Source: a candidate division WOR-3 bacterium
GTDB taxonomy: Bacteria; Hydrothermota; UBA3073
NCBI GenBank assembly: GCA_023129165.1
Contig: JAGMCL010000039.1
Coordinates: 1,839-65,838, forward strand
DNA length: 64,000 bases
Direction of reading: 5' to 3'
The notes below the pieces were generated by a model that was not told the DNA's origin, did no database searches, and saw only the letters and a program-made list of their open reading frames with translations. Below are positions 33,392-46,800 of the stretch, one piece after another. Both the position numbers and the translations under genes were made by a program. Position 1 is the first letter of the stretch; every line of letters starts with the position of its first letter.

Positions 33392-33978
33392 TCACAGCAT
33401 AGCTTCCAATCTTGGCTTTATGATATTATCAACACGGCAAATCTTGGCGTATTGCATAATCTCTTTTGGCTTTGTGCCTTTCTCCGTTACAGCCACCTTG
33501 AGAGCTTTCCGTGCAGTATTTATACCTATTCTATTGCGAAACTTGAAACAATCGGCAATAGTTTTGGCAAGATTGTAAACTCTGATTTTATGTCCCTCGA
33601 GTTTATATTCCTCTATCTCTGCTTTCCATACCTCGGGCGCAAAGCGGTAAAACTTGACTGGAGGATATTTAATTCTATTTGCATGGGTACTCTGTGGAAT
33701 AGCAATTTCCACATATTTGGGGATTTCACTGGTTGCTTCGTAAAAAGACAAAGCGGAAAGAAGACAAATAACGCCCCGTGGTGCCTGAAGAGATGCAATA
33801 ATTAGATCAGGATGAGACCCTGGTTCGTAATCAACTACGCGATAAAGACCTTGGGCAATCCTTTCGACTTTTCCCTCTTTTTCAGGAGCAATAAGCGAAT
33901 CCGGATGAAACCCAGCCTTTCAGTATAGCAGAAAACCTAACCACGCCGCCCTGGTTCTGGAAAAAACTCATAAGCTCC
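33392..33978 (-). pseudogene. AbiEi-family (type IV TA antitoxin/COG5340-like) gene, interrupted by a 1-nt frameshift near 33915. No AbiEii partner is present.
   Basis: From the ATG (complement of about 33976-33978): MSFFQNQGGVVRFSAILK, then a frame change, then AGFHPDSLIAPEKEGKVERIAQGLYRVVDYEPGSHPDLIIASLQAPRGVICLLSALSFYEATSEIPKY... This continues into the 119 aa ORF. It matches the AbiEi N-terminal wHTH pattern (G.VR...L...G.....L..L...G.LER..RG.YR...........L......P.GVICLLSAL.FH.LT). Frame 0 hits TGA after ...GFAYCS. Confidence 0.5.
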
Positions 33979-34277
33979 TGTGTTCTCGTGTTCACCTAAC
34001 CTCCGTAGAATTTCTTACTACTTGCGAATAAGTATATATAATTTATACGGTATGTCAATGTTTTTTTGGCTTCATAAATCAACAAGATAATTGAGAGAGA
34101 ACAGGCAGAAAATGCCGGTTTCGGGCGAGGGAACTTTCGTAACCGGTAATTCCTGCTCTCAATCAAACAATTGCGATGCGGATTGACCAAAGGGCAAAAG
34201 GTATCAAGTCCACTACGAATAACGCCGAAGGCGGTTGAAGTCGGACGACTACAATTACCGAAGGTGAGAAATGGCAC

Positions 34278-34727
34278 TTATATATATTGCTTTAATTGCT
34301 TTTTTCTTCTCGCCAAAGCATTCGTAACTTCTTTGGCACATAATAGCGCGTCTTTCTTTATTTTGAAATCCCAAAATCTAAAAACTTTCCAGCCATCTTT
34401 TCTTAATTTTCTATTGACTCTTTTGTCTCGGGCGATATTGTCTTCGATTTTTTTGTACCAAAAACTTTTTCTGACTTTTATTTTTTTCTTTTCCTTCGAC
34501 CAATTGAAACCGTGCCAAAATGAGGAATCGCAAAAAACTGCAATCTTCTGCAGTCTCCAACAGAAATCGGGCGTGCCGAGTACACCCCTTTTATTTTTAC
34601 GATAGCCCCGCAAACCAGACGCCCAAAGCGCTCGCCCCATGATCTTTTCAATTTCGGTCCCTTTTGCCCTTACATGGGACATTTTGTAGGCGACAATTTC
34701 CTTTTTACTTCTCTTCAAATGAGTCAT
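34278..34727 (-). CDS. vsr: Very-short-patch repair endonuclease (T:G mismatch endonuclease).
   Basis: MSHVRAKGTEIEKIMGRALW...TPDFCWRLQKIAVFCDSSFWHGFNWSK...FWYKKIEDNIARDKRVNRKLRKDGWKVFRFWD matches the Vsr pattern (MS.IR.K.T.PE...R..L...G.R.......GKPD.V.P..K.A.FV.GCFWH.H.C......K....FW..K...N..RD......L...GW.VL.VWE). Confidence 0.8.
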   Translation of the reverse strand: MTHLKRSKKEIVAYKMSHVRAKGTEIEKIMGRALWASGLRGYRKNKRGVLGTPDFCWRLQKIAVFCDSSFWHGFNWSKEKKKIKVRKSFWYKKIEDNIARDKRVNRKLRKDGWKVFRFWDFKIKKDALLCAKEVTNALARRKKQLKQYI

Positions 34728-34749
34728 TACATATAAAGCTATTCTAGTA

Positions 34750-36636
34750 TCAACTATTTTTTATATCTACATAATCTTTTATTTTGCGGATGTTTTCTTC
34801 CCGAGTTCTTTTTTTATATTCCAATCTGTTACACATATCCTCGACTTTTGACGCAAATTTATCGCATTCAACCCTAGTCATAGATAAACCGTCTTTGGTT
34901 CGAATGCTAGTATGCCATTCAACATCTGTATTGAGAGGTCTAGCAGGTGTATGTCCCTTGATATTAAAAACCTTATGATCCCTACGTGTTATCCAACCAG
35001 CTCCAACTTCTGTTACAGCACCCCATGCTTTCGCCATATCTTTACTGGTTACATAAATAACATATATTTTTTCGGCTGAATAACTTTCAACGAAAAATGT
35101 TCTTAAATAATCATATACTTCTACCCCTTCAGGGATTCTGCTAATTTCATCATCACAATTTGTATATATGATATCTTCTGGAGGAACACGATTAAACAAC
35201 AATAAACTGTAGATAACGTCCGATAGGTCTTTGTCATCTTTTGTGTGGCATATTAGAATCTTCTTTTTCTGAGCATCTACCTTCTTTTTTATCCCAACGA
35301 TAGGAAGAAAAATATTCATCTCATCTTCAATGATTTTCTTCATTTTTGTCAATGTATTTTTATCACTTTGATTTATCATTTCGGTAATTCTCCTGGTCGC
35401 GCTACCAGATGTTTCTTTCTTATATTTATCAACCAATTTTCTTAGCTCTCTTTCTTTTTGTTCTTGTTTCTTTAATTTCTCTTTTTCTTTCTCCTCTTTG
35501 TGATAGTTAGCATAAACGGTTCTAATTTCGACAATGTCGGGTAATAATTTTTTGGCAACAAACGAAATCACTTCCTGATATCTCGGATCATCTGTTTTAT
35601 ATCCCTGCCGATTACTTAATGCCATATCCGGCAACTCTGTCTCTTCAAATAAATCCACATGAAGTTGACCAACAACATAAACTTCTTGAAGCTTATTTTT
35701 TCCGACAACGGGTAGTATATTATACTCACCAATTTTGCTATTGGATAACAACGAAATAAAATTGTCAGGAAAGTCGCCATGCATTGCTTTCCTTCCTCTT
35801 GTGGTCTTGTATGCGCCAACCCAACCTTTTATGATAAGATTGTATTCCTTTTCTTTTCCATCTTTATTTCTAAGTTTCATTGGCTTCTTTTTTTCTTTTC
35901 GCACTTGCAATAATTTCTTTTCTTTGTCTGGATAATCGTTATTAAAAAAGTTAGCCAAGTATTCAAAATCGCTACCAATAATAATTAGTCCCCCCAGTTG
36001 CTTAATCATTTCTCGATCAAAGCTTTTTATGATTTCCTCTTTGTCATTCTGGATTATATGTATTCTAAAATTTCTGTTTATAAGAGGGAATATTTTGAGT
36101 AGATTTTTCTTAATCGTCTCAAAGCTTTTATTCAATCCATAATGAGGCTCTTTCATTATTATTGAGGTACCGTGTTTTTTAATCTTTTCAAATCGCATGT
36201 CTTTCTCTTCCAAGGGATCCAGAATTCTGTCATCTCTAACGTATATTGTAAAAATGAATCCTAATTTTTTACCGTCTTTGATTGTCTGAACCCATATATT
36301 GTCCGAAACCGAAAGTGCTGCCAGTTTTCCAACGCCTTTTCTACCTATTTTCCGGCGCCCTTTTTTTGTATACGAATCTTTTTTTGTTGTACGAGTTTCA
36401 GCTGCCACATTCAAGTATATTTTTGTATCTTCATATGACATCCCAATTCCATCATCCTCAACAATAATGGAATCAGGTTTTGCTATAATATATACATTTC
36501 TTGCATCGGCATCATAAGCATTGGCAATCAACTCAGCAAGAATATAATAAATATTCGTGTAAAGACTTGGCCCCAATAACCTCAATATTTTAGGATCAAG
36601 TTGCAATTCATATTTACGTTCTGATTGGTTATTCAT
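34750..36636 (-). CDS. GHKL-superfamily ATPase (MORC/MutL-like HATPase_c_3) with a long Lys-rich middle region and an unassigned C-terminal domain of about 180 aa. Candidate restriction/effector partner of the adjacent Dcm.
   Basis: Bergerat fold boxes: N-box ELIANAYDADA, G1 DDGIGM, G2 GRKGVGKLAA. Lys/Glu-rich coiled-coil-like segment (EKEKEKLKKQEQKERELRKL). The C-terminal segment (KKKILICHTKDDKDLSDVIYSLLLFNRVPPEDIIYTNCDDEISRIPEGVEVYDYLRTFFVES...) begins like a TIR-like/alpha-beta nucleotide-binding fold, but I cannot assign it confidently. The gene overlaps the dcm stop by 4 nt. Confidence 0.6.
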   Translation of the reverse strand: MNNQSERKYELQLDPKILRLLGPSLYTNIYYILAELIANAYDADARNVYIIAKPDSIIVEDDGIGMSYEDTKIYLNVAAETRTTKKDSYTKKGRRKIGRKGVGKLAALSVSDNIWVQTIKDGKKLGFIFTIYVRDDRILDPLEEKDMRFEKIKKHGTSIIMKEPHYGLNKSFETIKKNLLKIFPLINRNFRIHIIQNDKEEIIKSFDREMIKQLGGLIIIGSDFEYLANFFNNDYPDKEKKLLQVRKEKKKPMKLRNKDGKEKEYNLIIKGWVGAYKTTRGRKAMHGDFPDNFISLLSNSKIGEYNILPVVGKNKLQEVYVVGQLHVDLFEETELPDMALSNRQGYKTDDPRYQEVISFVAKKLLPDIVEIRTVYANYHKEEKEKEKLKKQEQKERELRKLVDKYKKETSGSATRRITEMINQSDKNTLTKMKKIIEDEMNIFLPIVGIKKKVDAQKKKILICHTKDDKDLSDVIYSLLLFNRVPPEDIIYTNCDDEISRIPEGVEVYDYLRTFFVESYSAEKIYVIYVTSKDMAKAWGAVTEVGAGWITRRDHKVFNIKGHTPARPLNTDVEWHTSIRTKDGLSMTRVECDKFASKVEDMCNRLEYKKRTREENIRKIKDYVDIKNS

Positions 36637-37772
36637 AAATACCCCTCAAAATGTTTAATAATGCTTTTTCCGATTATCTCACCCAAGCGAACCGGCACAG
36701 CATTTCCTATGTACTTCCCCAATCTTTTAAGTTCTACCGGTGAAGTAAAAGGGATAAATTTATATTTTTTAGGAAAAGTTTGTAAAATTGCGCCCTCACG
36801 TATTGATATGGCTCGATCTTGTTCGGGGTGACCAAATCGTCCCGTCCCAAAACTAAAAAACTGTGTTGTAATCGTAGGTGCTGGTTTATCCCACTCCATC
36901 CTTGCATAAACAGAACCATATGTGTTGCCGGTTTCTTTTCTATGACAATCTGCTCTTAGATTCACATCCCAATCTCTCCATGAACCACCTGGTACCGATT
37001 TCTTTATTCTCTTGAGATTGACTTTCGAGAGAGTTGCCGATTTATGCAATCTATCTTTTTTTGATGAAGTACCGGCTTTAATTGGCTCTAAATTACCGGT
37101 AGCCATTTTGACTGTTTTATAATTTTCCGGCTTATGTGTCGGAGCTATTAATTTTATTTCTCCTAACTGCGAAGCCAATAATACCAACCTTCTTCTATTT
37201 TGTGGAATTCCGTAATCGGGGCAATAAACATTTTGCCAATTGATATAATACCCTTTTGATTTGAGACCGTCGACAAAATCGGAGAAAACTGTATGTTTAA
37301 TTATTTGAGGAACATTTTCCATCGAAACAACATCAGGTTCCACTTCCTTAATCAATTTTATAAAATGATAAAGCAATCCCCAATCGTCTTTAGTCTCTCT
37401 ATCTTTTTCCTTTTGAGTATACTTGGAGAATGGTTGACAGGGAGCACAACCTACCAAAACCATCAGACTTTCAGCAGGATATAGTTTTGAAATTTCCTTT
37501 GATGTGATTTCTTTGATACTCTTGTGAATAAACGATGCGCCATTATTCTCTTCAAATGCAAACTTACATTTTTCATCGACATCAACTCCGGCTACGACTT
37601 TAATACCTGACTTCTGCAAACCATAAGTCAAACCCCCAACTCCACAGAACAAATCCACCGCAACTATGGATAACTTCTTTCTTTTTCTAATCATTGCCTT
37701 TTCTTCCTCTCCACTAAAATTGTTTCTCATACCAGACCTTAATAATTCAATCATTGATTTCTTATTCCTCAC
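36633..37772 (-). CDS. dcm: DNA (cytosine-5)-methyltransferase, Dcm-type.
   Basis: Motif I (VDLFCGVGGLTYGLQKSG), motif IV PC (GCAPCQPFS), motif VI ENVPQI. Followed by the GHKL gene and vsr. Confidence 0.85.
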   Translation of the reverse strand: MRNKKSMIELLRSGMRNNFSGEEEKAMIRKRKKLSIVAVDLFCGVGGLTYGLQKSGIKVVAGVDVDEKCKFAFEENNGASFIHKSIKEITSKEISKLYPAESLMVLVGCAPCQPFSKYTQKEKDRETKDDWGLLYHFIKLIKEVEPDVVSMENVPQIIKHTVFSDFVDGLKSKGYYINWQNVYCPDYGIPQNRRRLVLLASQLGEIKLIAPTHKPENYKTVKMATGNLEPIKAGTSSKKDRLHKSATLSKVNLKRIKKSVPGGSWRDWDVNLRADCHRKETGNTYGSVYARMEWDKPAPTITTQFFSFGTGRFGHPEQDRAISIREGAILQTFPKKYKFIPFTSPVELKRLGKYIGNAVPVRLGEIIGKSIIKHFEGYL

Positions 37773-37778
37773 GATTAA

Positions 37779-39212
37779 TTATTTTATACTTAGCTTTTTT
37801 AATTCCGAGTCCATCCACATTTGGGCTTGCTGTTCGTCTTTTTCGATAGCCATTTCAACGCCTTGTTTAGCAATGTCAAGTAACCGCTTTGAAAACTCAC
37901 GATTGCAAAAGGAATCATTAACCGTTTCGGCGATTTTCTTTTGTTTCCCAATTGGTAAAACAGGAATAAGTGTATTCTTAACCTGATCCACACGCCAGTG
38001 ATTTATAACCGAACCACCAGCGTCACGCTCTATCTGTTTTTGTACAATTACCGAATTCAACACCAGTGTCAAATACTCTGGATATAATTTATCTTCATCT
38101 TCAACTGTTAACCGCAATATGCCACCTGACGGAATCATTTTTTCTGGCTCATCTTTCAAATAATATGCAATGCCCGGAGTGGCGTCTTTTGATAACAATA
38201 TTTCACCCTTTTTCGGTTGATTTTGTTTTATTGTCCTGTATAATTCCTCGCTTAAATACTGTTGATTGCCATCCTTTAAGCCAAACTTTGAAAGATTGCT
38301 CACGCGCAAGAATAAAATTCCACTTTCTTGATATGCTCCACTTCCGGGCTCAATACATTTATTAATCGAGACTAAATCACCCAAACAATAATACCCTTTT
38401 GTTGAGATAATCCTTTGTACTATCTCATCATACACAGGCTGAAAGTACTCGGCATCATTTCGATCTGCGGATTGCGTGTCGGAGTAATTCTTCACAAATG
38501 AAAGCCGATGTTTCGGCCTCCAGTTTAACAAGTTAAGCTCGGATAAGAGCATCTGCTCGGCTTGAGAATAAAAAAGATGAGCAGATTGAATTTTATTGAA
38601 TGCTTTTGTGACTAAACCTGAGACAACTTTATAAAATATATCTAAAAAAACAGGTAAGCGTAAATTCTCAATGTCAGAAACATTTAATTTTGGCTGTGCG
38701 TTTCCGCTGATCAATCTTAATACTTGTATTTGACCAATTTTAGAATTTAAGTGGGATAAAATATAGTCTCTATAAAAATCCGGTAAATTCTCCGGTAATC
38801 TTATTCCAAGATTATTCTCGCTTATATTACAATTGCCGATTTCGGGTGTTACTTTTGAAACAACACCAATTGTATTACCAACTTTTGAAAGAACTAAGTC
38901 CCCAATTTTTAGTTGAGACGATGTGAGTCTTTTATTATCTTCTTCAGATATATAAATCAAATCATCTTTGGATATAAAAAAATCTTTTAAATCGGATATT
39001 CTGACAAATGGTATCCCGTTTGTTAGATATGCTTCGCTTTTTAAAGATGAGCCGAATGGTCCACTTACGACCTTACACCCTATCTCTTTTAATGTTTTTC
39101 CATGACGCTGGCTAATAATGCTTTCATACTTTAAGGCAGTAGGGTGAAAATATTCAGCATCAAGCCTGAATATACCTTTTACATCTTTAAATTTTACAAC
39201 TGAATATTGCAT
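37779..39212 (-). CDS. hsdS: Type I-like restriction-modification specificity subunit with two target-recognition domains.
   Basis: 477 aa with duplicated Methylase_S architecture: two variable TRDs separated by the conserved central/distal repeats (LSELNLLNWRP and the C-terminal EMAIEKDEQQAQMWMDSELKKL coiled coil). N-terminus typical of HsdS (GIFRLDAEYF...). Confidence 0.8.
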   Translation of the reverse strand: MQYSVVKFKDVKGIFRLDAEYFHPTALKYESIISQRHGKTLKEIGCKVVSGPFGSSLKSEAYLTNGIPFVRISDLKDFFISKDDLIYISEEDNKRLTSSQLKIGDLVLSKVGNTIGVVSKVTPEIGNCNISENNLGIRLPENLPDFYRDYILSHLNSKIGQIQVLRLISGNAQPKLNVSDIENLRLPVFLDIFYKVVSGLVTKAFNKIQSAHLFYSQAEQMLLSELNLLNWRPKHRLSFVKNYSDTQSADRNDAEYFQPVYDEIVQRIISTKGYYCLGDLVSINKCIEPGSGAYQESGILFLRVSNLSKFGLKDGNQQYLSEELYRTIKQNQPKKGEILLSKDATPGIAYYLKDEPEKMIPSGGILRLTVEDEDKLYPEYLTLVLNSVIVQKQIERDAGGSVINHWRVDQVKNTLIPVLPIGKQKKIAETVNDSFCNREFSKRLLDIAKQGVEMAIEKDEQQAQMWMDSELKKLSIK

Positions 39213-39214
39213 AG

Positions 39215-40051
39215 TTATTTATTAGTTATTTGAAAGATCGCCAACTTCAAAACCTGCCAGCATAATTTAGCCGTGTGCTCATCTGGATTAAATTGCTGAT
39301 TTGCTTGCTGATATGGGTGAATATAATTTCTAAAATCTCTCAATGAATGGCTGAATTTCTTTACATCTTCTTTTAAAAACCCAATTTCCTTAGCAACATC
39401 TATAAAATTACTTAGCGTCCATTTATGAAATTGTAAAACTTTTCCGTTTTTATCTTTTGGACTGGTTTTTGCCATATTGAATTTTTGCGGATTGCTTGTT
39501 GCAACACCAAGCAATATTCCTTCAAGCGTGCTTCCGCATAGAAAGATTGTTGCTAAAGCCGCTTTTGAATTTAAGCATTTTTTAATTTCTTCAAGTCTCT
39601 GCTCAAGTATACTCGTTATTATCCCATCTAATTTTAACGAACCAATTGAAACTTCATTAAATTCCTTTTTTAAAAATTCATCCTCTGTAATGTTTTTGTT
39701 TTGCGTTTGTTTACCAAGCAATCTATCACTAATCTTCTTAGCCTTGTCAATAAGATTTTGAGGGAAATCGTTTTGTTGAAGATTGTCAATTAAAATTTGG
39801 TTTTCAATGTACTCAACAAGTTTTTCTATAGATTTGCCAACTAAAGAATCGCCAGCCACTTGCCAAAAACCTCTCATGCAATTGGCTTTTGATCCGCTTG
39901 CATAGTTATATTTTTCATCGTAGATATTAATGCCGACATCATCATTAAAAAACTCCCCCATTGTCCTATCGGAGAAATTAAGGACATAACCTCCGCTCAT
40001 TTGAAAAAGCTTCTCTAACGCTTGCTTATCGTTTGTAGTTAGACTTGCCAT
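39215..40051 (-). CDS. HEPN-like (Abi/DUF4145-like) protein inserted between hsdM and hsdS.
   Basis: The C-terminal about 120 aa (ALATIFLCGSTLEGILLGVA...KFSHSLRDFRNYIHPYQQ...AKLCWQVLKLAIFQI) contains an R-x(4-6)-H HEPN-type motif in an all-helical context. The position between M and S genes matches the known tendency of HEPN/Abi genes to embed in type I RM operons. The N-terminal 150 aa is unassigned. Confidence 0.35.
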   Translation of the reverse strand: MASLTTNDKQALEKLFQMSGGYVLNFSDRTMGEFFNDDVGINIYDEKYNYASGSKANCMRGFWQVAGDSLVGKSIEKLVEYIENQILIDNLQQNDFPQNLIDKAKKISDRLLGKQTQNKNITEDEFLKKEFNEVSIGSLKLDGIITSILEQRLEEIKKCLNSKAALATIFLCGSTLEGILLGVATSNPQKFNMAKTSPKDKNGKVLQFHKWTLSNFIDVAKEIGFLKEDVKKFSHSLRDFRNYIHPYQQANQQFNPDEHTAKLCWQVLKLAIFQITNK

Positions 40052-40054
40052 GGA

Positions 40055-42145
40055 CTATCTCCAAAAACTTAATTTCTCTTTTTTCGCCCAATCAATAAAC
40101 GCTTCGGCAATACCATCTGCAAGCTCGCCGTTGTGATTTTGCAAGTCATGATCCACAATCAAATGACCAAATTTATCCAACATAGGCTTACCGTCACAAT
40201 TTTTGACATAAATATAATCCCCTGAATTATCTTTCCCCGCCTTCTCTGATACACCAAAAAATATTGGGTAATCTTTCTGTTTGGGACATAATTCATCATC
40301 CCATTTCTGAACGAACAACATGCTTGTCTTTGTGCCGGTATGAGGTTTAAAAGTATTTACATGCAGACCCACAACCGCAATGATTCGCGCCTTATCGGCA
40401 ATATATTCCCGAATGTCTTTATCCGATGTATTGTTAAATCTTCCTTGAGGTAAAACAATCGCCATACGTCCACCGGGCTTGATAAAATCAAGATTACGCT
40501 CGATAAAAAGAATATCCCGACCGACCTTTGACTTGGGCTTGTTTTTATTATTATAACCAAGCTCGTATTTATGGATTATACGGGATTCCTTAATATCTCC
40601 GGCAAAGGGTGGATTTGCCATCAAAATATCAAACAGAAAATCTGTATTTCCTTCGCTGTTTTTTTTCAATTCTTTTAAACGCTTATATCCGCCTCCATAA
40701 GTCTCGATCCAATTCGGATTTTTCGTTGTCTCGTCCCAACGGTCATAATCAAGTGTGTTTAAATGTAAAACATTTGTCTCACCGTCTCCTGCAATGAGAT
40801 TTAAGGTGCGTGCCACACGCACCACTTTCTCGTCGAAATCGATGCCGAACACTTTCAATACATCTTCTTTTTCTTCGGCAGATATCTCCTTGTTTTCGAA
40901 CAAATGGCCAGTTAAATAAAAAATTGTATGAACGGTAAATCCGCAGGATCCGGCAGCAGTATCGATCATATATTCGCCCTTTTTGGGATTGAGCATCTTA
41001 ACGCACATATCGATTACGTGACGAGGCGTAAAATACTGCCCTTTTTCACCTTTGGAAGATTTGCTGACCAAATATTCGAATGCCTCATCGATAACCTGTA
41101 AATTGGAATTGAAAAGCTTTACGTCTTGAAGGCTCGATATACATATGGAAAGATGCGAAGGTGAAAGATCGATTTTACTTTCATCGGGAAACACACCGGT
41201 CCATTTCCTTTTTGCTTCATCGAATAGCTTTTGAATTTTCTTTTTTAATTCTCCTTCCGACTGACCGGTATTCCTGAATTCCAGGATCCTGAACGATGAA
41301 TCATCCACCCCTTGAATAGCTTCTTTGATTTCATCGAATGAATTTTCTTTCGGCTTTCCATATTTAGCTTTAGGCTCGGCAATCATAGGATAATCTTTAT
41401 CCCTTAAAAAATAATTTATAACCACCCTATCCTTCTGGCTTTTGTGTTCATCATATAATTTAGTGAATATCAGCTTAAAAACTTCTTCGAATACATCGAC
41501 TCCAGCATTGGCAAGAACCTCATCTTCCATATCCTGGATAATCGTCTTGAGGGATTTCCCCTCCGAAGGAATTTTATCTTTGATAATTAGGTCTTTAATC
41601 GTATATCGTTCTTTAAGGATATCCGCAAGAGTCTGACTGGCATTTGGAATATCGGTTATATCCTCGAAAAAATTAGGGTCTTTGCGGTTATAATGGGAAA
41701 TCTGACCTCCGTTTGTCCATACGGCTATAGGCGCACCAGTAGCATTACAATAACTCTTGAGCTGTTCCTTGCCATCTTTCAGCTTGGGTTTTTTAACCTC
41801 GATGATGATATATTCGATGGTCGGACGCTCTTTATCGAAAACTACGATATCGGAAGATTTCGTCTGCCGTCCAAACTGCACAGGATGCTCGAATCTAATT
41901 CTTTTCTTGGGATAGCCATAATAATTTATCAATTTTGCAGTATAAAGCTGGCGTACGACTTCTTCGGGTTTAAGTTGAATTTCCTTTTCTCGAATTATGC
42001 ACTCCACATATAGCTTGCCTTTTTTTTCGATAATCTTTTTCTCAAGAACCGTTATTTCTTCAGGCGCAAATATCGAAAGATTGTATTGTGAATCTTTTAA
42101 TATGGAAAGCAGAGTAATTTTATCGTCACTTTTTGCCATAAACAC
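40055..42145 (-). CDS. hsdM: N6-adenine DNA methyltransferase (HsdM-like, gamma class) fused to an N-terminal PD-(D/E)xK (HSDR_N-like) nuclease domain.
   Basis: N-terminal about 170 aa: ...SDIVVFDKERPTIEYIIIEVKKPKLK (D...E-V-K nuclease signature) within an HSDR_N-like fold. Then the HsdM N-domain and catalytic domain with motif I (IDTAAGSCGF) and motif IV NPPF (MANPPFAGD). 696 aa, versus about 500 aa for a plain HsdM. Confidence 0.75.
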   Translation of the reverse strand: MFMAKSDDKITLLSILKDSQYNLSIFAPEEITVLEKKIIEKKGKLYVECIIREKEIQLKPEEVVRQLYTAKLINYYGYPKKRIRFEHPVQFGRQTKSSDIVVFDKERPTIEYIIIEVKKPKLKDGKEQLKSYCNATGAPIAVWTNGGQISHYNRKDPNFFEDITDIPNASQTLADILKERYTIKDLIIKDKIPSEGKSLKTIIQDMEDEVLANAGVDVFEEVFKLIFTKLYDEHKSQKDRVVINYFLRDKDYPMIAEPKAKYGKPKENSFDEIKEAIQGVDDSSFRILEFRNTGQSEGELKKKIQKLFDEAKRKWTGVFPDESKIDLSPSHLSICISSLQDVKLFNSNLQVIDEAFEYLVSKSSKGEKGQYFTPRHVIDMCVKMLNPKKGEYMIDTAAGSCGFTVHTIFYLTGHLFENKEISAEEKEDVLKVFGIDFDEKVVRVARTLNLIAGDGETNVLHLNTLDYDRWDETTKNPNWIETYGGGYKRLKELKKNSEGNTDFLFDILMANPPFAGDIKESRIIHKYELGYNNKNKPKSKVGRDILFIERNLDFIKPGGRMAIVLPQGRFNNTSDKDIREYIADKARIIAVVGLHVNTFKPHTGTKTSMLFVQKWDDELCPKQKDYPIFFGVSEKAGKDNSGDYIYVKNCDGKPMLDKFGHLIVDHDLQNHNGELADGIAEAFIDWAKKEKLSFWR

Positions 42146-42463
42146 CTCGTTTCTTCAAAAACTTTTCGATGTGATAGGACTGTATCTTGTTAGGATTGTT
42201 GGAATGTCAATATGTACAACATATTATAACACGAAACTCAGAGAATGTCAAGCAATTGAGTTAAATTGTCGTATTACTAAACTATACAATAGTTTACAAC
42301 AATTTTATGGTTCATAAATGGACAATTCTCAAGAATTTTTTAGTGTTTTTCGGATTAGATTCAAGATACATAATAATCAATACTGAAGAATTTAGAAACA
42401 GGTCTTCCAGTATGAAGAGTGAAGAAACAATTGTAATCTGCGGCAATCTGCGTCCTATTATTC

Positions 42464-44011
42464 TCACACCTTCTCTGTTATAGCCTTTGCCTGGAGGAAA
42501 AAGAGAAGATAATCCCTTGAGCCTGTTTTCGTATCAGTTCCAGAAAGGTTAAACCCGCCAAAAGGATGAACTCCTACAAGAGCACCTGTGCATTTTCTGT
42601 TTATATATAGGTTTCCAACATGGAATTCTACCTTTGCCCTTTCTATCTTTTCTCTGTTATTTGTATATACTGCACCAGTTAGTCCATAATCCGTACCATT
42701 TGCTATATCCATAGCATCATCGAAATCCTTTGCGGGTATGACTGCAAGTACTGGACCAAATATCTCTTCCTGTGCTATTCTTGCGTTGGGGTTTAAATCG
42801 GTTATTATAGTGGGCTTTATATAGTATCCATCGCCTTCAGCAGGTTCACCACCAAGAACGAGTTTTCCTTCTTTTTTACCAACTTCTATATATTCAAGAA
42901 TGCTTCTATATGCCCGTTCATTTATTACTGCACCCATGAAGTTTTCAGGGTCTTCTGGTGGTCCTTGTTTTATCTTCTTTCCTTTTTGTACAAGTTTATC
43001 GATGAATTCGTTGTAAATTTCATCAAGAACTATAGCTCTTGAACAGGCTGAGCATTTCTGACCCTGGTATCCAAATGCTGCTACAATTACTCCATTCACT
43101 GCAGAATCAAGGTCTGTTTCAGAATCCACTATAATCGTATCTTTACCACCCATCTCAGCTATAACTCTCTTTATCCATTTCTGACCTTTGGATAGTTTGG
43201 CAGCAAGCTCCACTATTCTTAGGCCTACTGCCTTAGAACCTGTAAATGTTATAAATCGTGTCTTTGGAGAATTCACAAGAATATCACCAATCTTACCTCC
43301 GCTTCCTGGTAGGTAGTTTACAACACCATCAGGTACACCAGCTTCCTCAACGATTTCCATGAACTTCGCACCTGTAACAGGAGAATCACTTGATGGTTTT
43401 AAAACAACAGTGTTACCTGCTCCAAATGCAGCGGCTGTCATACCAGTAAGTATAGACATTGGAAAGTTCCAGGGTGGTATAGATACTCCAACTCCAAGTG
43501 GTATATACCACATCTCAGGCTTTTCACCAGGAAATGGAGTTATATCGCCTCCCTTACCGTATCTAATGACCTCCCTGGCATAATAGTCAAGAAAGTCTAT
43601 TGCTTCTGCAATATCTCCATCTGCCTCAGGCCAGGATTTTCCAACTTCATATACGAGCCAGGCATCAAGTTCGTATCTCATTCTTCTCATTATATCTGCC
43701 ATTTTAAAGAGGTATTCTGCTCTTTCCTCTGCTTTTGTATATCTCCATTTTTTAAAGGCCTCCGTTGCTACTTCGAGTGCTCTCTCTGCGTCTTCTACAG
43801 ATGAGTTCTCAACTATTCCTACAACATCGTCCTTGTGGGATGGATTTATAGATTTTATAGGTGTTACAATTTTACCTTTCTTTCCCCCGATTATGTTGGG
43901 ATACTCTTTGCCCAATTCACCCTTTACTTTTGTCAGGGCATTCTGCATCATTTTTTTATTCTCGTCGTTTTTGAAGTCTATAATAACTTCGTTTTTGAAA
44001 TCTCCCCTCAT
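42464..44011 (-). CDS. rocA: L-glutamate gamma-semialdehyde (1-pyrroline-5-carboxylate) dehydrogenase, aldehyde dehydrogenase family.
   Basis: 515 aa. The N-terminus (KNEVIIDFKNDENKKMMQNALTKVKGELGKEYPNIIGGKK) matches RocA/PruA. Catalytic Cys region (GQKCSACSRAIV) and Glu (AEMGGKD). Confidence 0.8.
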   Translation of the reverse strand: MRGDFKNEVIIDFKNDENKKMMQNALTKVKGELGKEYPNIIGGKKGKIVTPIKSINPSHKDDVVGIVENSSVEDAERALEVATEAFKKWRYTKAEERAEYLFKMADIMRRMRYELDAWLVYEVGKSWPEADGDIAEAIDFLDYYAREVIRYGKGGDITPFPGEKPEMWYIPLGVGVSIPPWNFPMSILTGMTAAAFGAGNTVVLKPSSDSPVTGAKFMEIVEEAGVPDGVVNYLPGSGGKIGDILVNSPKTRFITFTGSKAVGLRIVELAAKLSKGQKWIKRVIAEMGGKDTIIVDSETDLDSAVNGVIVAAFGYQGQKCSACSRAIVLDEIYNEFIDKLVQKGKKIKQGPPEDPENFMGAVINERAYRSILEYIEVGKKEGKLVLGGEPAEGDGYYIKPTIITDLNPNARIAQEEIFGPVLAVIPAKDFDDAMDIANGTDYGLTGAVYTNNREKIERAKVEFHVGNLYINRKCTGALVGVHPFGGFNLSGTDTKTGSRDYLLFFLQAKAITEKV

Positions 44012-44328: not shown

Positions 44329-45012
44329 TTATAGCAATTTCTCAGATGCAAAGCTGAAGTATTTATTATCTCCAATTATAATATGGTCCAAAACCCTAAT
44401 ATCTACTGGGTTAAGTGCATTTACAACATCTTGAGTTATCGTTTTGTCTTCAGGTGATGGGGTTGGATCTCCTGATGGATGGTTGTGTACGAGAATGACA
44501 GAACTTGCGTTCTTTTTTAAAGCAGTTTTTACAATTTCCCTGGGATAAACAGCTGATGAGTCGACTGTTCCATTAAATAGATTATCTATATCAAGTAGCC
44601 TGTTTTTGATATCTAAAAAAAGAATTTTGAAGACCTCTTTTTTAATACCTCTCATTGAAACATATAGATAGTCAAATACATCCTGTGGATTTTTATAAAC
44701 ATCATTCTTTAAAATTTTATCTTTGAGATATCTTTCTGTTACCTCTTTTATTAATCTTATACCGAAGATATTTTTAGGACCTATACCACATACCCTCCGT
44801 AGCTCATCAGGTTCTCCCTCTATAACACCACGCAATGTCTTGAATTTTTTTATAAGTATCTTGGCTTCTTGTTTACAATCCTTTCTCGGAGTACCAAGGG
44901 TTAGTAAGAGTTCTACAATCTCATAATCATGCAACCCTAATAGTCCCGACATAATAAATTTATCTCGCAGTCTCTTCCTATGTCCTTCTCTGGTATCCAT
45001 AATAGATATCAA
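44329..45012 (-). CDS. radC: RadC-like JAB/MPN domain protein (UPF0758).
   Basis: C-terminal JAMM-like motif (ASSVILVHNHPSGDPTPSPEDKTITQ) plus the N-terminal helix-hairpin-helix region typical of RadC. Confidence 0.8.
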   Translation of the reverse strand: MISIMDTREGHRKRLRDKFIMSGLLGLHDYEIVELLLTLGTPRKDCKQEAKILIKKFKTLRGVIEGEPDELRRVCGIGPKNIFGIRLIKEVTERYLKDKILKNDVYKNPQDVFDYLYVSMRGIKKEVFKILFLDIKNRLLDIDNLFNGTVDSSAVYPREIVKTALKKNASSVILVHNHPSGDPTPSPEDKTITQDVVNALNPVDIRVLDHIIIGDNKYFSFASEKLL

Positions 45013-45047
45013 AATTGCAAATCAAAATTCAAAAACTTGGGCAACAC

Positions 45048-45773
45048 CTACACCTCAAAAACATTTATAACCTCTTCCCCAAGCATATCAATGATTTTTA
45101 CTGCAACTTGGGTTTTAGATTCTGGGATTTCAATTTCATATTTTCCTTTTACTAAGTCGTTTTTTCTTTCTGGAACATCGGAGTAAACGATATGGAAGGT
45201 TTTGCCATCGTAATTTTTATCAATTAAAACTGTATCAATCATAGATCTATAATCGGGGATTTTTACCTTGAAGAGTTTATTGTCAATGTTAAGACGTTCA
45301 ATTATTGTGGGAGAGATAAAGTTCTGAATCTCCACTAATGTCTTTGTCTTATCAATCCTTTCAACTTTTATTTTTGCTTCTGCGGGCTTGTGGATTAAGA
45401 AATTACCATATTTTTTATTTGTCTTTAACTCAATTACTTTAATCTTATTTACAGGATGTTTCTTGTTCCACTCATCAATCCAGGGGTCAACCGCTAATTC
45501 TTTGCCAAGACAGACAATAGTTATATCCCTATCTTCAGTTGGTCTTTTCTTTAATTCATCTTGAAGAAGTTGTAAGTCAAGAAGTGTTAGGGGATGATTA
45601 AAATCAATAATTTTTACGAGATTTTTCCCTAAATATCCATCAAAAAATCTATCGGTTCGTGTCCTTTGAATTCCAATATGCTGGACTGCAAGTTCAATTG
45701 CCTCGGTTTTTAAAAGTTGCAAATCATAGTCGTTAACCTTATAGATACCGAAAGAATAATACTTCTTACACAT
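45048..45773 (-). CDS. Hypothetical protein in the defence operon; unassigned.
   Basis: 241 aa. Overlaps the upstream DUF1016 gene by 8 nt. I recognise no motif. Confidence 0.3.
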   Translation of the reverse strand: MCKKYYSFGIYKVNDYDLQLLKTEAIELAVQHIGIQRTRTDRFFDGYLGKNLVKIIDFNHPLTLLDLQLLQDELKKRPTEDRDITIVCLGKELAVDPWIDEWNKKHPVNKIKVIELKTNKKYGNFLIHKPAEAKIKVERIDKTKTLVEIQNFISPTIIERLNIDNKLFKVKIPDYRSMIDTVLIDKNYDGKTFHIVYSDVPERKNDLVKGKYEIEIPESKTQVAVKIIDMLGEEVINVFEV

Positions 45774-46800
45774 CTTTTGCCTCCAGTTTTAATTGTGCAG
45801 TTTGTATGGCTTTATGTAATTTTTCAGCAAATAATTCTTTTGGTGGCAATTTTGTCAGGTATTCCGCTACTTTTATTCTATCCTTTGGTAAAAATAGAAG
45901 TTCTATCTGCTCTTTACCTTTTTCAGCACAGAGTATAAGTCCAACAGGTGGATTCTCTCCTTCAAGCATTTCATATTTCTCTAAATATCTGAGATAAAGT
46001 TCCATCTGACCTTTGTAGTCTGCTTTAAATTTCCCAAGTTTTAAGTCTATCACTATGAAGCATCTTAATTTTCTGTGGTAAAATACCAAATCCATATAGT
46101 AATCCTCGTTATCAACAGTAATTCTTTTCTGTCTTGCCACAAAATAGAAATCTTTTCCTAATTCAAGGATAAATTTCTCAAGGGCATTCAATATTGCTCT
46201 TTCTAAATCTCTTTCACTATAAGTATCGCTGAGTTCTAAAAAGTCCAATACATAAGGGTCTCTAAAAACTAATTCTGGTGTCATTTTGTCTTTTTCTTTT
46301 AGTTCTTTTAATTGCATTTTTATAGTCTTTTCTGGAAGTTTTGACAATGCGGTTCTTTCATAAAGCATACTATTCATTCTTTCCTGAAGTGTGCGTGTGC
46401 TCCAGTGTTCTTTCAAGCATAAGGTAGCGTAAAATTCTCGTTTTAATTTATCTTTTGTTGGCAAAAGAGTTCTAATATGTGTCCAACTCAGCCCTTCTAA
46501 TTCTCCACGCAGTGCGTGGAGAATTGGGTAGCTTTCATATAACTGAATCATATACCACAAATTTTGTGTTGAATATCCTTTACCGTATTTTTGTGTTAAT
46601 AGTGAACTAACCGAGTTCACTATCTTTTTCCCATACTCAGCCCTATATGACTTTATTATCTCTTCTTTGACTGTCTTACCTATGTTCCAGTAGAGCAACA
46701 CCATCTCCTGATTGATAGTAGTGGCAACTTTTCTTCTTGCCTGTTCTATCAAGCCAGAAATTTTGTCAAACAGACCTTTACCTTTCTCAATTTTATTCAT
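45766..46800 (-). CDS. DUF1016/YhcG-family PD-(D/E)xK nuclease-fold protein.
   Basis: Matches the YhcG pattern: N-terminal helical domain (LSWTHIRTLL) and C-terminal PDDEXK core (GKDFYFVARQKRITVDNEDYYMDLVFYHRKLRCFIVIDLKLGKFKADYKGQMELYLRYL). Confidence 0.7.
   Translation of the reverse strand: MNKIEKGKGLFDKISGLIEQARRKVATTINQEMVLLYWNIGKTVKEEIIKSYRAEYGKKIVNSVSSLLTQKYGKGYSTQNLWYMIQLYESYPILHALRGELEGLSWTHIRTLLPTKDKLKREFYATLCLKEHWSTRTLQERMNSMLYERTALSKLPEKTIKMQLKELKEKDKMTPELVFRDPYVLDFLELSDTYSERDLERAILNALEKFILELGKDFYFVARQKRITVDNEDYYMDLVFYHRKLRCFIVIDLKLGKFKADYKGQMELYLRYLEKYEMLEGENPPVGLILCAEKGKEQIELLFLPKDRIKVAEYLTKLPPKELFAEKLHKAIQTAQLKLEAKDV

What the first reader, a model, noticed from the sequence alone, without database searches (positions are those of the whole stretch)
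34278..42145. Six-gene translationally coupled defence operon: nuclease-fused HsdM, HEPN-like, HsdS, Dcm, GHKL ATPase, Vsr
Six minus-strand genes are packed with overlaps or gaps of 25 nt or less. These are 40055-42145, 39215-40051, 37779-39212, 36633-37772, 34750-36636 and 34278-34727. The layout implies one transcript. The combination is not a textbook system. It pairs an adenine methyltransferase/S-subunit pair that has its own PD-(D/E)xK domain but no HsdR translocase with a C5 cytosine methyltransferase. The Dcm partner is not a recognisable restriction endonuclease but a GHKL/MORC-like ATPase with an unassigned C-terminal domain. A HEPN-like gene and a Vsr repair nuclease complete the operon. 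Bacterial MORC/MutL-like GHKL ATPases have been reported next to restriction-modification genes. A co-operonic fusion of an m6A type-I-like module, an m5C/GHKL module and a HEPN toxin looks like a composite or undescribed defence architecture.
Basis: partly seen in the sequence, partly recalled or inferred. Interest (0 to 1): 0.8.

Follow-up and report, generated by a model that had tools for sequence, protein, structure and literature searches.

The report
Two stacked restriction-modification cassettes, one TIR-armed
The six tightly packed genes are real, but they are two separately mobile DNA-methylation defence cassettes sitting end to end, and the most interesting part is that the partner of the cytosine methylase is a MORC-like ATPase fused to a TIR domain rather than to a recognisable nuclease.

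Summary
The six minus-strand genes exist as described, with gaps of -4 to 22 nt. A consensus promoter lies upstream of the first gene, and no convincing promoter or terminator lies between the genes.

Comparative genomics splits the "operon" into two independent cassettes:
- **Cassette A:** a PD-(D/E)xK-fused N6-adenine methylase, the HEPN gene and HsdS. It recurs without dcm/GHKL in other metagenomic contigs. Homology to one such contig (L177) stops at the hsdS stop codon. It never has an HsdR, and one homologue is a single-chain R-M-S enzyme, so it is Type IIB/BcgI-like.
- **Cassette B:** Dcm, GHKL-TIR and Vsr. Dcm lies directly upstream in 58 of 76 related loci. Cassette A genes are absent from all 79, apart from two weak methylase-domain matches.

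Both cassette types were already described computationally (paraMORC4, REBASE putative enzymes, R-M-embedded HEPN genes). The composite reading is not supported. The methylation-gated TIR effector remains experimentally untested and worth testing.

The parts
42223..42251 (-). Consensus sigma-70 promoter (TTGACA-17-TATAAT with TG extension) about 75-80 nt upstream of the first gene. It is the likely promoter of the whole array.
   Evidence: Promoter scan, 12/12 match; sequence read.
40055..42145 (-). RM subunit of cassette A. It carries an N-terminal PD-(D/E)xK nuclease domain (HSDR_N_2, aa 60-167; E86, D99, E116-x-K118) fused to a gamma-class N6-adenine methyltransferase (aa 351-660; DTAAGSCGF, NPPF 511-514). 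The probable true start is ATG 42139.
   Evidence: Pfam, PADLOC and NCBIfam; best PDB match is the RM.BsaXI methylase region; motifs; the start is inferred from L177.
39215..40051 (-). 278-aa protein with an all-helical N-terminal domain and a C-terminal HEPN domain (aa ~143-276). Arg241 and His245 of the 238-RDFRNYIHP-246 stretch are invariant across the family and Arg238 is conserved in at least 90%. It is a predicted RNase-type toxin embedded in the R-M cassette.
37779..39212 (-). Specificity subunit (HsdS-like) with two target-recognition domains and conserved central and C-terminal regions. The recognition domains are swapped in otherwise near-identical cassettes.
   Evidence: Pfam and PADLOC. 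It is 30-31% identical to the S subunits of L177 and L010, while the flanking genes are 85-95% identical.
37773..37778 (.). Junction between the two cassettes, immediately after the hsdS stop codon.
   Evidence: DNA homology to L177 (RM-HEPN-S only) ends here. L010, which shares the composite, stays 92% identical through it.
36633..37772 (-). C5-cytosine DNA methyltransferase (motifs FCGVGG, PCQ, ENV, QNR, GNAV). The start is possibly ATG 37694. Its stop overlaps the GHKL start (ATGA).
   Evidence: PF00145 at 202 bits and TIGR00675 above cut-off; motifs; junction.
35587..36636 (-). GHKL ATPase plus S5/transducer module of the 628-aa protein (aa 1-350). The Bergerat motifs are intact (E35/N39/D42, D61xGxG, G98xxGxG, G156-T157). 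A conserved loop 337-DMALSNRQGYKTDDPRY-353 is also present.
35377..35586 (-). Single ~70-residue helix (aa 351-420), a predicted coiled-coil linker between the ATPase and the TIR domain.
   Evidence: AF2 secondary structure.
34753..35274 (-). C-terminal TIR domain (aa ~455-628) of SpbK type. Invariant Glu543, Gly545 and Trp548 align with SpbK E192, G194 and W197.
34278..34727 (-). Vsr very-short-patch repair endonuclease. It repairs T:G mismatches from 5-methylcytosine deamination.
   Evidence: TIGR00632 at 108.6 bits, above the 97.85 cut-off; PF03852.

Best explanation
The region holds two autonomous, horizontally mobile restriction-modification-type cassettes. They are joined head to tail in a defence island and are probably read from one strong promoter.

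**Cassette A (42145-37779)** is a BcgI-like, Type IIB-style system.
- A single polypeptide carries a PD-(D/E)xK nuclease and an N6-adenine methylase.
- It works with a two-TRD specificity subunit and needs no HsdR motor.
- It is predicted to methylate host sites and cut unmodified DNA.
- The HEPN gene between them is a predicted metal-independent RNase. By analogy with PrrC/EcoprrI, it would act as a second-line abortive-infection toxin, held in check by, or backing up, the R-M complex (inferred).

**Cassette B (37772-34278)** is a cytosine-methylation system.
- Dcm marks self DNA.
- Vsr repairs the T:G mismatches that 5mC deamination creates.
- The "restriction" arm is a MORC-like GHKL ATPase, a coiled coil and a TIR domain.
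- The ATPase module is predicted to dimerise or clamp on unmethylated target DNA in an ATP-dependent way. That would bring the TIR domains together, which in studied TIR enzymes switches on NAD+ hydrolysis. The expected outcome is growth arrest of the invaded cell rather than, or in addition to, DNA cutting.

**Shown here:** the domain identities, the conserved catalytic residues, the independence of the two cassettes and the obligatory dcm-GHKL linkage.

**Inferred:** DNA sensing by the ATPase module, NADase chemistry, the HEPN toxin role and co-transcription.

**Confidence by part:** anatomy and two-cassette reading ~0.85-0.9; TIR identity ~0.95; methylation-gated NADase mechanism ~0.4.
For: **Domain assignments**
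- Family searches for all six proteins.
- No HsdR in the window.

**Cassette A**
- Homologous RM+S pairs on complete 22-29 kb plasmids have no HsdR annotated within the stretches inspected (6-7 kb on each side).
- A 60%-identical homologue on Picosynechococcus pAQ6 is a single chain of nuclease, methylase and two S domains.
- The RM-HEPN-S trio occurs alone in L177-L180. The breakpoint is at the hsdS stop.
- HEPN fold and the conserved RDFRNYIHP stretch, with invariant Arg241 and His245.
- Of the tightly linked upstream neighbours of HEPN homologues, 19 of 36 are HsdS and 3 are MmeI-like. Downstream neighbours include HsdR, AbiJ, DarT and PIN genes.
- R-M-embedded HEPN genes are a documented theme.

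**Cassette B**
- GHKL-TIR model.
- MORC, MutL and SpbK-TIR structural matches.
- The SpbK profile hit places the invariant Glu on the residue changed in SpbK's E192A mutant.
- Dcm lies directly upstream in 58 of 76 loci. X278 and HsdS are absent from all 79, with only two weak methylase-domain matches to the RM gene.
- Two-gene dcm-GHKL-TIR loci have no other conserved partner in Treponema socranskii and others.
- SpbK literature: clustering of TIR domains activates the NADase.

**Transcription**
- A single consensus promoter and tight junctions.
Against: - No experiment supports NADase activity, DNA sensing or HEPN toxicity for these proteins.
- Pfam TIR models barely detect the domain (1 of 18 members, E 0.015), so it is a divergent TIR.
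- No sequence-specific DNA-recognition domain has been identified in the GHKL-TIR protein.
- REBASE-derived models and the 2008 literature treat such proteins as putative Type II endonucleases.
- Relatives that share the N-terminal module (HgiDII, BbrUII) are named restriction enzymes.
- One promoter for all six genes, and conservation of the same composite in L010, mean that functional cross-talk between the cassettes is not excluded.
Confidence: 0.65

Rival explanations
1. The GHKL-TIR protein is a true DNA-damaging Type II restriction enzyme. The MORC-like module finds unmethylated sites, and the TIR domain itself attacks DNA as a nuclease or N-glycosidase. Cassette B would then be an ordinary, if structurally unusual, m5C R-M system.
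For: - PADLOC REase_II models PDLC03485 and PDLC03419 match the N-terminal ~350-430 residues, and NCBIfam BbrUII/HgiDII matches aa 9-427.
- Orlowski & Bujnicki list several GHKL-headed REase subfamilies. R.LweSORF291P (Listeria) may be this family, since L. monocytogenes has a 46.5%-identical homologue, but its sequence was not compared here.
- Iyer et al. 2008 proposed that the paraMORC4 TIR may be a nuclease.
- The reference list of the SpbK paper includes a report of plant TIR domains acting as 2',3'-cAMP/cGMP synthetases. That such TIRs act on nucleic acids is my own recollection.
Against: - The conserved residue is the Glu at the position mutated in SpbK (E192A), an NAD+-cleaving TIR.
- No PD-(D/E)xK, HNH, GIY-YIG or PLD motif was found anywhere in the protein.
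- The C-terminal part of the BbrUII/HgiDII model (positions 405-659), which differs from this protein's C-terminus, is not matched.
Confidence: 0.25
2. All six genes form one integrated composite defence system in which the m6A module, the m5C/GHKL module and the HEPN toxin depend on each other.
For: - Same strand, tight junctions and a single consensus promoter.
- The same composite is present in the related contig L010 at 85-95% identity.
- One further contig (L093) has an HsdS-HEPN pair 5 kb from a dcm-GHKL pair.
Against: - RM-HEPN-S is found without dcm/GHKL in L177-L180, with a sharp homology breakpoint at the hsdS stop.
- dcm-GHKL is found without X278 or HsdS in all 79 genome loci; two have weak matches to the RM methylase domain only.
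- HEPN homologues also occur solo or in other R-M types.
- Stacking of independent systems is the norm in defence islands. This one continues with a Type III R-M and other genes at 44.3-50.5 kb.
Confidence: 0.08
3. The HEPN protein is not a toxin. It is a structural or regulatory subunit of the Type IIB-like complex, for example RNA- or nucleotide-binding, and is needed for assembly or control.
For: - In the closest relatives (at least 80% identity) whose contigs reach both sides, the gene sits between RM and S, with 2-12 nt junctions.
- Some HEPN domains are non-catalytic binders.
Against: - The R...H motif typical of catalytic HEPN RNases is invariant.
- More distant homologues (47-67% identity) stand alone or sit next to unrelated defence genes.
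- RM+S pairs on plasmids work without it, to judge from their gene content.
Confidence: 0.2
4. The GHKL protein is a MutL-like helper of Vsr in very-short-patch repair, not a defence effector.
For: - In E. coli, MutL stimulates Vsr (my own knowledge, not tested here).
Against: - Only 26 of 79 loci have a vsr at all, whereas 72 of 79 have dcm.
- The pairing is with dcm by start/stop overlap.
- The model does not explain the TIR domain with a conserved catalytic Glu.
- The closest structural relatives are MORCs.
Confidence: 0.04

Closest known systems
Type IIB restriction-modification enzymes (BcgI, BsaXI: RM subunit plus S subunit; single-chain AloI-type)
   Same: - One polypeptide has an N-terminal PD-(D/E)xK nuclease and a gamma-class N6-adenine methylase.
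- A separate two-TRD specificity subunit is present and there is no HsdR motor.
- The best solved-structure match is RM.BsaXI.
- A 60%-identical homologue is a single-chain R-M-S fusion.
   Different: - Similarity to BsaXI is limited to the methylase region (E 1e-17).
- PADLOC files the family under Type I methylases.
- Cutting on both sides of the site, which defines Type IIB, is untested.
- A HEPN gene sits between the RM and S genes.
PrrC anticodon nuclease embedded in the EcoprrI Type Ic locus
   Same: A HEPN-type predicted RNase gene lies inside an hsd-like operon. In PrrC the R-M complex silences the toxin until a phage disables restriction.
   Different: The 278-aa protein has no ABC-ATPase domain and no sequence relation to PrrC. 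The host R-M is Type IIB-like, not Type Ic. No interaction or activation has been shown.
paraMORC4 family (Iyer, Abhiman & Aravind 2008); possibly also the REBASE putative enzyme R.LweSORF291P
   Same: The architecture is GHKL + S5 with a C-terminal TIR domain, in gene neighbourhoods with cytosine methylases and Vsr, and with patchy, laterally mobile distribution.
   Different: - That description is purely computational and predates knowledge of TIR NADase chemistry.
- Its Hx[ST]xD loop motif reads H-T-K-D-D here, although several family members do have HxSxD.
- I could not compare directly with their sequences.
R.HgiDII / R.BbrUII (NCBIfam NF050001), Type II enzymes paired with m5C methylases
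   Same: The N-terminal GHKL + transducer module is homologous (E 4.9e-63 over aa 9-427), and the gene order is the same, with dcm directly upstream.
   Different: The score (213.7) is far below the family cut-off (550). The C-terminal 250 positions of that family are replaced here by a coiled coil plus a TIR domain.
SpbK (Bacillus subtilis ICEBs1 TIR NADase)
   Same: It is the closest TIR domain in sequence and structure. The catalytic Glu and the G and W of the alpha-C helix are conserved. In SpbK the NADase is activated by TIR clustering.
   Different: SpbK has a small four-helix N-terminal domain that senses a phage portal protein. Here the sensor is a MORC-like ATPase genetically tied to a DNA methylase.
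VcSduA (paraMORC3-type GHKL-Shedu nuclease) and SPARTA (short Argonaute with TIR-APAZ)
   Same: - VcSduA is a GHKL ATPase fused to a C-terminal effector and is shown to defend against phage. Both its ATPase and its effector are required.
- SPARTA is listed among NAD+-depleting abortive-infection systems. That it senses nucleic acid is my own knowledge.
   Different: VcSduA's effector is a PD-(D/E)xK nuclease and it has no methylase partner. SPARTA senses guide/target duplexes through an Argonaute rather than methylation state.

Membership tests
Type I restriction-modification | HsdR translocase/nuclease subunit | tested here: not met
   No HsdR in the 64-kb window. No ORF of at least 700 aa is an HsdR; the only helicase-type one is a ResIII protein beside an N6_N4 methylase, i.e. 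Type III. Homologous RM+S pairs on 22-29 kb plasmids have none annotated within 6-7 kb.
Type I restriction-modification | HsdM-type N6-adenine methylase and HsdS with two TRDs | tested here: met
   PF02384 at 120 bits and PF01420 at 46 bits; PADLOC MTase_I at 982 bits and Specificity_I at 142 bits; NPPF and AdoMet motifs.
Type IIB (BcgI-like) R-M | Nuclease and methylase in one polypeptide, plus an S subunit (separate or fused) | tested here: met
   HSDR_N_2 (aa 60-167; D99, E116xK118) + N6_Mtase in one ORF, with an S gene downstream. A single-chain R-M-S homologue exists.
Type IIB (BcgI-like) R-M | Cleavage on both sides of a bipartite recognition site | not testable with these tools
   Needs in vitro cleavage mapping.
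MADS (methylation-associated defence system) | MAD2 and MAD5 equivalog scores | tested here: not met
   MAD2 scores 303 against a cut-off of 720, and MAD5 scores 143 against 400. Apart from sub-threshold mad2 and mad5 matches, no other mad model hit any of the ten proteins scanned.
HEPN superfamily | Four-helix HEPN fold | tested here: met
HEPN superfamily | Conserved Rx4-6H catalytic motif | tested here: inconclusive
   In 238-RDFRNYIHP-246, Arg241 and His245 are invariant and Arg238 is conserved in at least 90%. R238-x6-H245 fits the motif, whereas R241-N-x-x-H245 has only 3 residues between. The model is of low confidence at 239-248.
Pfam DUF4145 | Gathering score | tested here: not met
   17.6 bits against a cut-off of 23.1.
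PrrC/RloC anticodon nucleases | N-terminal ABC-type NTPase fused to the HEPN domain | tested here: not met
   No ATPase domain was detected. The N-terminal 140 residues are helical with no family hit.
BbrUII/HgiDII family restriction enzyme (NF050001) | Equivalog cut-off and full-length match | tested here: not met
   213.7 bits against a cut-off of 550. Only model positions 1-404 of 659 are matched.
paraMORC4 (GHKL-S5-TIR of R-M neighbourhoods) | Intact GHKL ATP-binding motifs plus an S5/transducer domain | tested here: met
paraMORC4 (GHKL-S5-TIR of R-M neighbourhoods) | C-terminal TIR domain | tested here: met
paraMORC4 (GHKL-S5-TIR of R-M neighbourhoods) | [quoted passage not shown] | tested here: inconclusive
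   The window protein reads H-T-K-D-D. Other members read HKSTD, HTSLD, HTSAD and HASKD, which fit the motif.
paraMORC4 (GHKL-S5-TIR of R-M neighbourhoods) | Neighbourhood with a cytosine methylase and Vsr | tested here: met
   Among TIR-type loci, Dcm is directly upstream in 12 of 18 and Vsr is present in 9 of 19.
TIR NAD+ hydrolases | Catalytic glutamate in the alpha-C region | tested here: met
   E543 is invariant in 48 homologues. It aligns with the Glu changed in SpbK's E192A mutant.
TIR NAD+ hydrolases | NAD+ cleavage activity | not testable with these tools
   Needs an enzyme assay.
DISARM | drmA/drmB (and drmC/D/E) core genes beside the methylase | tested here: not met
   Dcm's best PADLOC hit is DrmMII (336 bits), but no Drm helicase, DUF1998 or PLD gene lies in the array.
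Vsr endonuclease | TIGR00632 cut-off | tested here: met
   108.6 bits against a cut-off of 97.85.

The most novel reading that the evidence does not exclude
Cassette B is a restriction-modification analogue in which the epigenetic self/non-self test is kept but the nuclease is replaced by an immune-type effector. A MORC-like ATP-driven clamp reads unmethylated Dcm sites on incoming DNA and, by clustering its TIR domains, depletes NAD+ or makes a TIR-derived signal. That would link DNA methylation directly to abortive infection. In the same transcript, a HEPN RNase guarded by a Type IIB-like complex would give a second such fail-safe.
Probability: 0.35. Interest if true: 0.8.

Novelty: new member of a known kind. 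Interest (0 to 1): 0.5.

Why it matters
If the TIR domain is the effector, the dcm-GHKL-TIR pairs would show that methylation-based self-recognition can drive NAD+-depletion immunity rather than DNA cutting.

- **Scale:** the search found more than 2,400 related protein clusters, and full-length TIR-type members occur in many phyla. These include organisms such as Treponema socranskii, Listeria monocytogenes and Marinobacter.
- **Wider link:** this would connect bacterial R-M systems to MORC ATPases and TIR signalling, both of which serve immunity and epigenetic silencing in eukaryotes.
- **Annotation:** many "putative Type II restriction enzymes" and "ATP-binding proteins" may be misdescribed.
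- **Testability:** the family has members in cultured species, and the point mutants are obvious (E35/N39 for the ATPase, E543 for the TIR), so the question can be tested directly.

The six-gene arrangement itself is ordinary defence-island stacking.

Tried and rejected
1. Exact-sequence look-ups of the window's GHKL protein and of P0001 found no contig. The source is therefore only inferred from the NCBI name of the 100%-identical protein, candidate division WOR-3.
3. Pfam does not recognise the TIR domain. PHROGs gave nothing for the HEPN protein.
4. MADS and DISARM were considered because of the PADLOC and NCBIfam hits. Both were rejected on cut-offs and missing partner genes.
5. The 263-aa gene after the S gene on a Klebsiella plasmid is not a HEPN homologue.
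6. ORF 33996-34277, directly after vsr, has no family hit and covers a promoter-containing spacer, so I treat it as spurious.
7. A hairpin after vsr is not distinguishable from shuffled sequence (z -0.9), so the 3' end of the transcript is undefined.
8. Literature searches found no experimental study of a Dcm-linked GHKL-TIR protein. The library lacks most subscription journals, so this is not proof of absence.


Full report
**Observation.** The junctions read from the sequence are 3, 2, 6, -4 and 22 nt. Two starts probably need adjusting. The first gene most likely begins at ATG 42139, which follows an AGGTG site, and the 90%-identical homologue in L177 aligns from that Met. dcm may begin at ATG 37694, which would make the hsdS-dcm spacer 84 nt. 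A perfect sigma-70 consensus promoter with an extended -10 lies at 42251-42223 on the minus strand. Nothing comparable, and no convincing terminator, lies between the genes. A single transcript is plausible but unproven. Base composition does not set the genes apart from the window.

**What the six proteins are.**
- **Gene 1** combines an HSDR_N_2 PD-(D/E)xK domain (aa 60-167; D99, E116-x-K118) with an N6-adenine methylase (NPPF at 511-514).
  - It matches PADLOC's MTase_I model PDLC03034 at 982 bits.
  - Its best solved relative is the RM subunit of the Type IIB enzyme BsaXI.
- **Gene 3** is an HsdS-type subunit with two TRDs.
- **Gene 4** is a C5-cytosine methylase with all canonical motifs.
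- **Gene 6** is Vsr, above the TIGRFAM cut-off.
- **Gene 2** (278 aa) has only a sub-threshold DUF4145 hit.
  - Arg241 and His245 of the stretch 238-RDFRNYIHP-246 are invariant.
- **Gene 5** (628 aa) has intact GHKL motifs.
  - Residues 351-420 form one long helix.

[quoted passage not shown] It is a TIR domain.
- PADLOC's spbK model matches aa 380-558 (E 1.9e-15).
- phmmer finds SpbK (9phb) at E 3.9e-5.
- A profile of 18 family members finds SpbK at E 3.4e-19.
- The alignment puts the family-invariant Glu543, Gly545 and Trp548 on SpbK E192, G194 and W197. These are the residues mutated in the structural study of SpbK, an NADase switched on by TIR clustering (PMC12847820).
- Pfam's TIR models miss the domain.
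- A search of 1.8 billion cluster representatives finds only 141 relatives. The strong hits are mostly ~615-650-aa proteins with the domain at the C-terminus. This TIR subtype is therefore narrow and is tied mainly to the GHKL fusion.

**One system or two?** Comparative genomics gives a clear answer: two.
- *Cassette B on its own.*
  - The GHKL-TIR protein belongs to a large family. More than 2,400 clusters match, and full-length members of at least 54% identity occur in WOR-3, Patescibacteria, Actinomycetota, Clostridia, spirochaetes and ANME-1 archaea.
  - In 79 loci from species-representative genomes, a Dcm gene lies directly upstream in 58 of 76 testable cases and somewhere in the locus in 72 of 79. 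Vsr is present in 26 of 79.
  - The HEPN gene and HsdS were found in none. The RM gene gave only two weak methylase-domain hits.
  - Loci in Treponema socranskii and others show a bare dcm-GHKL-TIR pair, with start/stop overlap, between unrelated genes.
- *Cassette A on its own.*
  - The closest relatives of the HEPN gene sit in an RM-HEPN-S trio that is followed by different genes. These are L177-L179 from an Omnitrophica MAG and other samples (HEPN 95% identical; in L177 the RM subunit is 90% identical), and L180 (HEPN 81%).
  - DNA homology between the window and L177 stops just after the hsdS stop codon, near window position 37773.
- *The composite elsewhere.* One related metagenomic contig, L010, shares the window's composite and is 92% identical through the junction. 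The fusion is thus a lineage-specific event, not a conserved architecture.
- *Specificity swapping.* The S subunits of L177 and L010 are only 30-31% identical to the window's, although the flanking genes are 85-95% identical. Conservation is confined to the central and C-terminal regions. This is the usual swapping of target-recognition domains.

**Cassette A.**
- No HsdR exists in the window.
- Plasmid-borne homologues are annotated "N-6 DNA methylase" plus "restriction endonuclease subunit S", with no HsdR in the stretches inspected on complete 22-29 kb plasmids.
- The 60%-identical homologue on Picosynechococcus PCC 7002 pAQ6 is a 1,179-aa single chain with nuclease, methylase and two S domains.
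- This is the architecture of Type IIB enzymes: BcgI and BsaXI as RM plus S, and the AloI type as one chain. Double-sided cleavage cannot be tested here. MADS is excluded on cut-offs.
- More distant HEPN homologues (47-67% identical) are often tightly linked to other R-M genes.
  - The upstream neighbour is HsdS in 19 of 36 tightly coupled cases and an MmeI-like enzyme in 3.
  - Downstream neighbours include HsdR, AbiJ, DarT and PIN genes.
  - Some homologues stand alone.
- HEPN genes embedded in R-M operons are an established theme, with PrrC/EcoprrI as the worked example (PMC3710099).
- I infer a PrrC-like fail-safe RNase. The protein has no ABC ATPase and is not a PrrC family member.

**Cassette B against what is known.**
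- Iyer, Abhiman and Aravind (2008) described paraMORC families in R-M neighbourhoods with cytosine methylases and Vsr. Their paraMORC4 carries a C-terminal TIR domain, which they guessed might be a nuclease or a ligand-binding site (PMC2292703).
- Orlowski and Bujnicki (2008) noted that R.HgiDII has a GHKL N-terminus and an unassigned C-terminus. They also noted other REBASE subfamilies with a GHKL head and different tails, including R.LweSORF291P from Listeria (PMC2441816). L. monocytogenes carries a 46.5%-identical full-length homologue behind a 351-aa ORF that I did not characterise.
- The window protein matches the BbrUII/HgiDII model over positions 1-404 only, at 213.7 bits against a cut-off of 550. 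It shares the sensor/ATPase module of real restriction enzymes but not their C-terminal part.
- A loop, 337-DMALSNRQGYKTDDPRY-353, is conserved across the whole Dcm-linked GHKL group but is modelled with low confidence. It may be the ATP-sensing loop of the transducer domain. That reading is my inference.
- A related architecture, GHKL plus a Shedu nuclease (paraMORC3, VcSduA), has been shown to defend against phage and to need both ATPase and effector (PMC12137116).
- I found no experimental work on the Dcm-linked TIR form.

**Mechanism proposed.** Dcm marks self DNA. The MORC-like module is predicted to close on unmethylated sites in an ATP-dependent way. The coiled coil and this dimerisation would bring the TIR domains together, which in SpbK and other TIR enzymes creates the composite NADase site. 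NAD+ loss, or a TIR-made signal, would then arrest the invaded cell. Vsr limits C-to-T mutation at methylated sites. The steps after [quoted passage not shown] are inference, and I give this mechanism about 0.4. The main rival (0.25) is that the protein damages DNA directly, as REBASE-style annotation assumes.

**Verdict.** The composite-system interpretation is not supported. Both cassettes are members of kinds already described computationally. The untested methylation-gated TIR effector is the part that merits follow-up.

Noticed in passing
window 33392-33996 (minus strand), promoter-like site 34058-34031: An AbiEi antitoxin gene appears frameshifted. The C-terminal 119 aa match AbiEi models at 1e-41, and the N-terminal part reads in another frame after a stop. 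No AbiEii toxin gene follows, so it is probably a decayed toxin-antitoxin remnant. ORF 33996-34277 over the spacer looks spurious.
   Followed up: partly
window 44329-50538 (minus strand): A second defence cluster lies here: RadC (44329-45012), a 241-aa protein with no family hit (45048-45773), a YhcG/DUF1016 PD-(D/E)xK protein (45766-46800), an N6_N4 methylase (46800-47957) and an 868-aa ResIII protein (47932-50538). The last two look like a Type III R-M pair. Together with the finding, this makes a defence island of ~17 kb, interrupted by an aldehyde dehydrogenase gene (42464-44011).
   Followed up: partly
L018 887-15914 (Marinobacterium profundum); probably also L017, L021 and L025, judged only from dcm-vsr lying 8-9 kb upstream: In these genomes the GHKL-TIR gene is not next to dcm. 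In L018 it sits in a larger array: Dcm - Vsr - SNF2-type helicase (1,048 aa) - MmeI/Eco57I-like methylase (1,458 aa) - GHKL-TIR - 1,341-aa Helicase_C protein. This is a DISARM-like context and suggests the TIR-armed ATPase can plug into helicase-based systems too.
   Followed up: partly
L170 7001-10540 (Picosynechococcus sp. PCC 7002 plasmid pAQ6): A 1,179-aa single-chain homologue (60% identical over the RM part) fuses nuclease, N6-adenine methylase and two specificity domains. It lies in a model cyanobacterium where its activity could be tested.
   Followed up: partly
window 37779-39212 versus L177 3930-5333 and L010 882-2270: The specificity subunit is only 30-31% identical between cassettes whose RM, HEPN and (in L010) dcm/GHKL genes are 85-95% identical. 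Conservation is limited to the central and C-terminal regions. This points to recent exchange of target-recognition domains.
   Followed up: partly
window 35578-35628 (aa 337-353 of the GHKL protein): The loop DMALSNRQGYKTDDPRY is almost invariant in the TIR-type family. It is recognisable (D[IM]A[TL]S.RQ...DDPRY) in relatives only 25-30% identical that have other C-termini. The structure model has its lowest confidence there (aa 331-346). Its role is unknown. It may be the ATP-sensor loop or a DNA contact.
   Followed up: partly
L181 1596-6849 (IMG/VR contig IMGVR_UViG_3300014206_004182, 52.8 kb): A contig classed as viral carries Vsr, Dcm and a 72-74%-identical GHKL-TIR gene. A second, distantly related GHKL gene (25% identical) follows immediately. 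Only 2 viral contigs had the TIR subtype.
   Followed up: partly
L177 252-965 and window 44329-45012: In L177 a RadC gene lies 28 nt upstream of the RM gene. In the window, RadC is separated from the RM gene by the aldehyde dehydrogenase gene and the consensus promoter. This hints that the dehydrogenase segment was inserted, or the cassette rearranged, in this lineage.
   Followed up: no
L093 4738-13058 (metagenome contig Ga0172381_10003309): This is the only other contig among 80 where a HEPN homologue (65% identical, directly after an HsdS) lies within 5 kb of a dcm-GHKL pair (GHKL 32% identical). It is probably defence-island clustering rather than a functional link.
   Followed up: no
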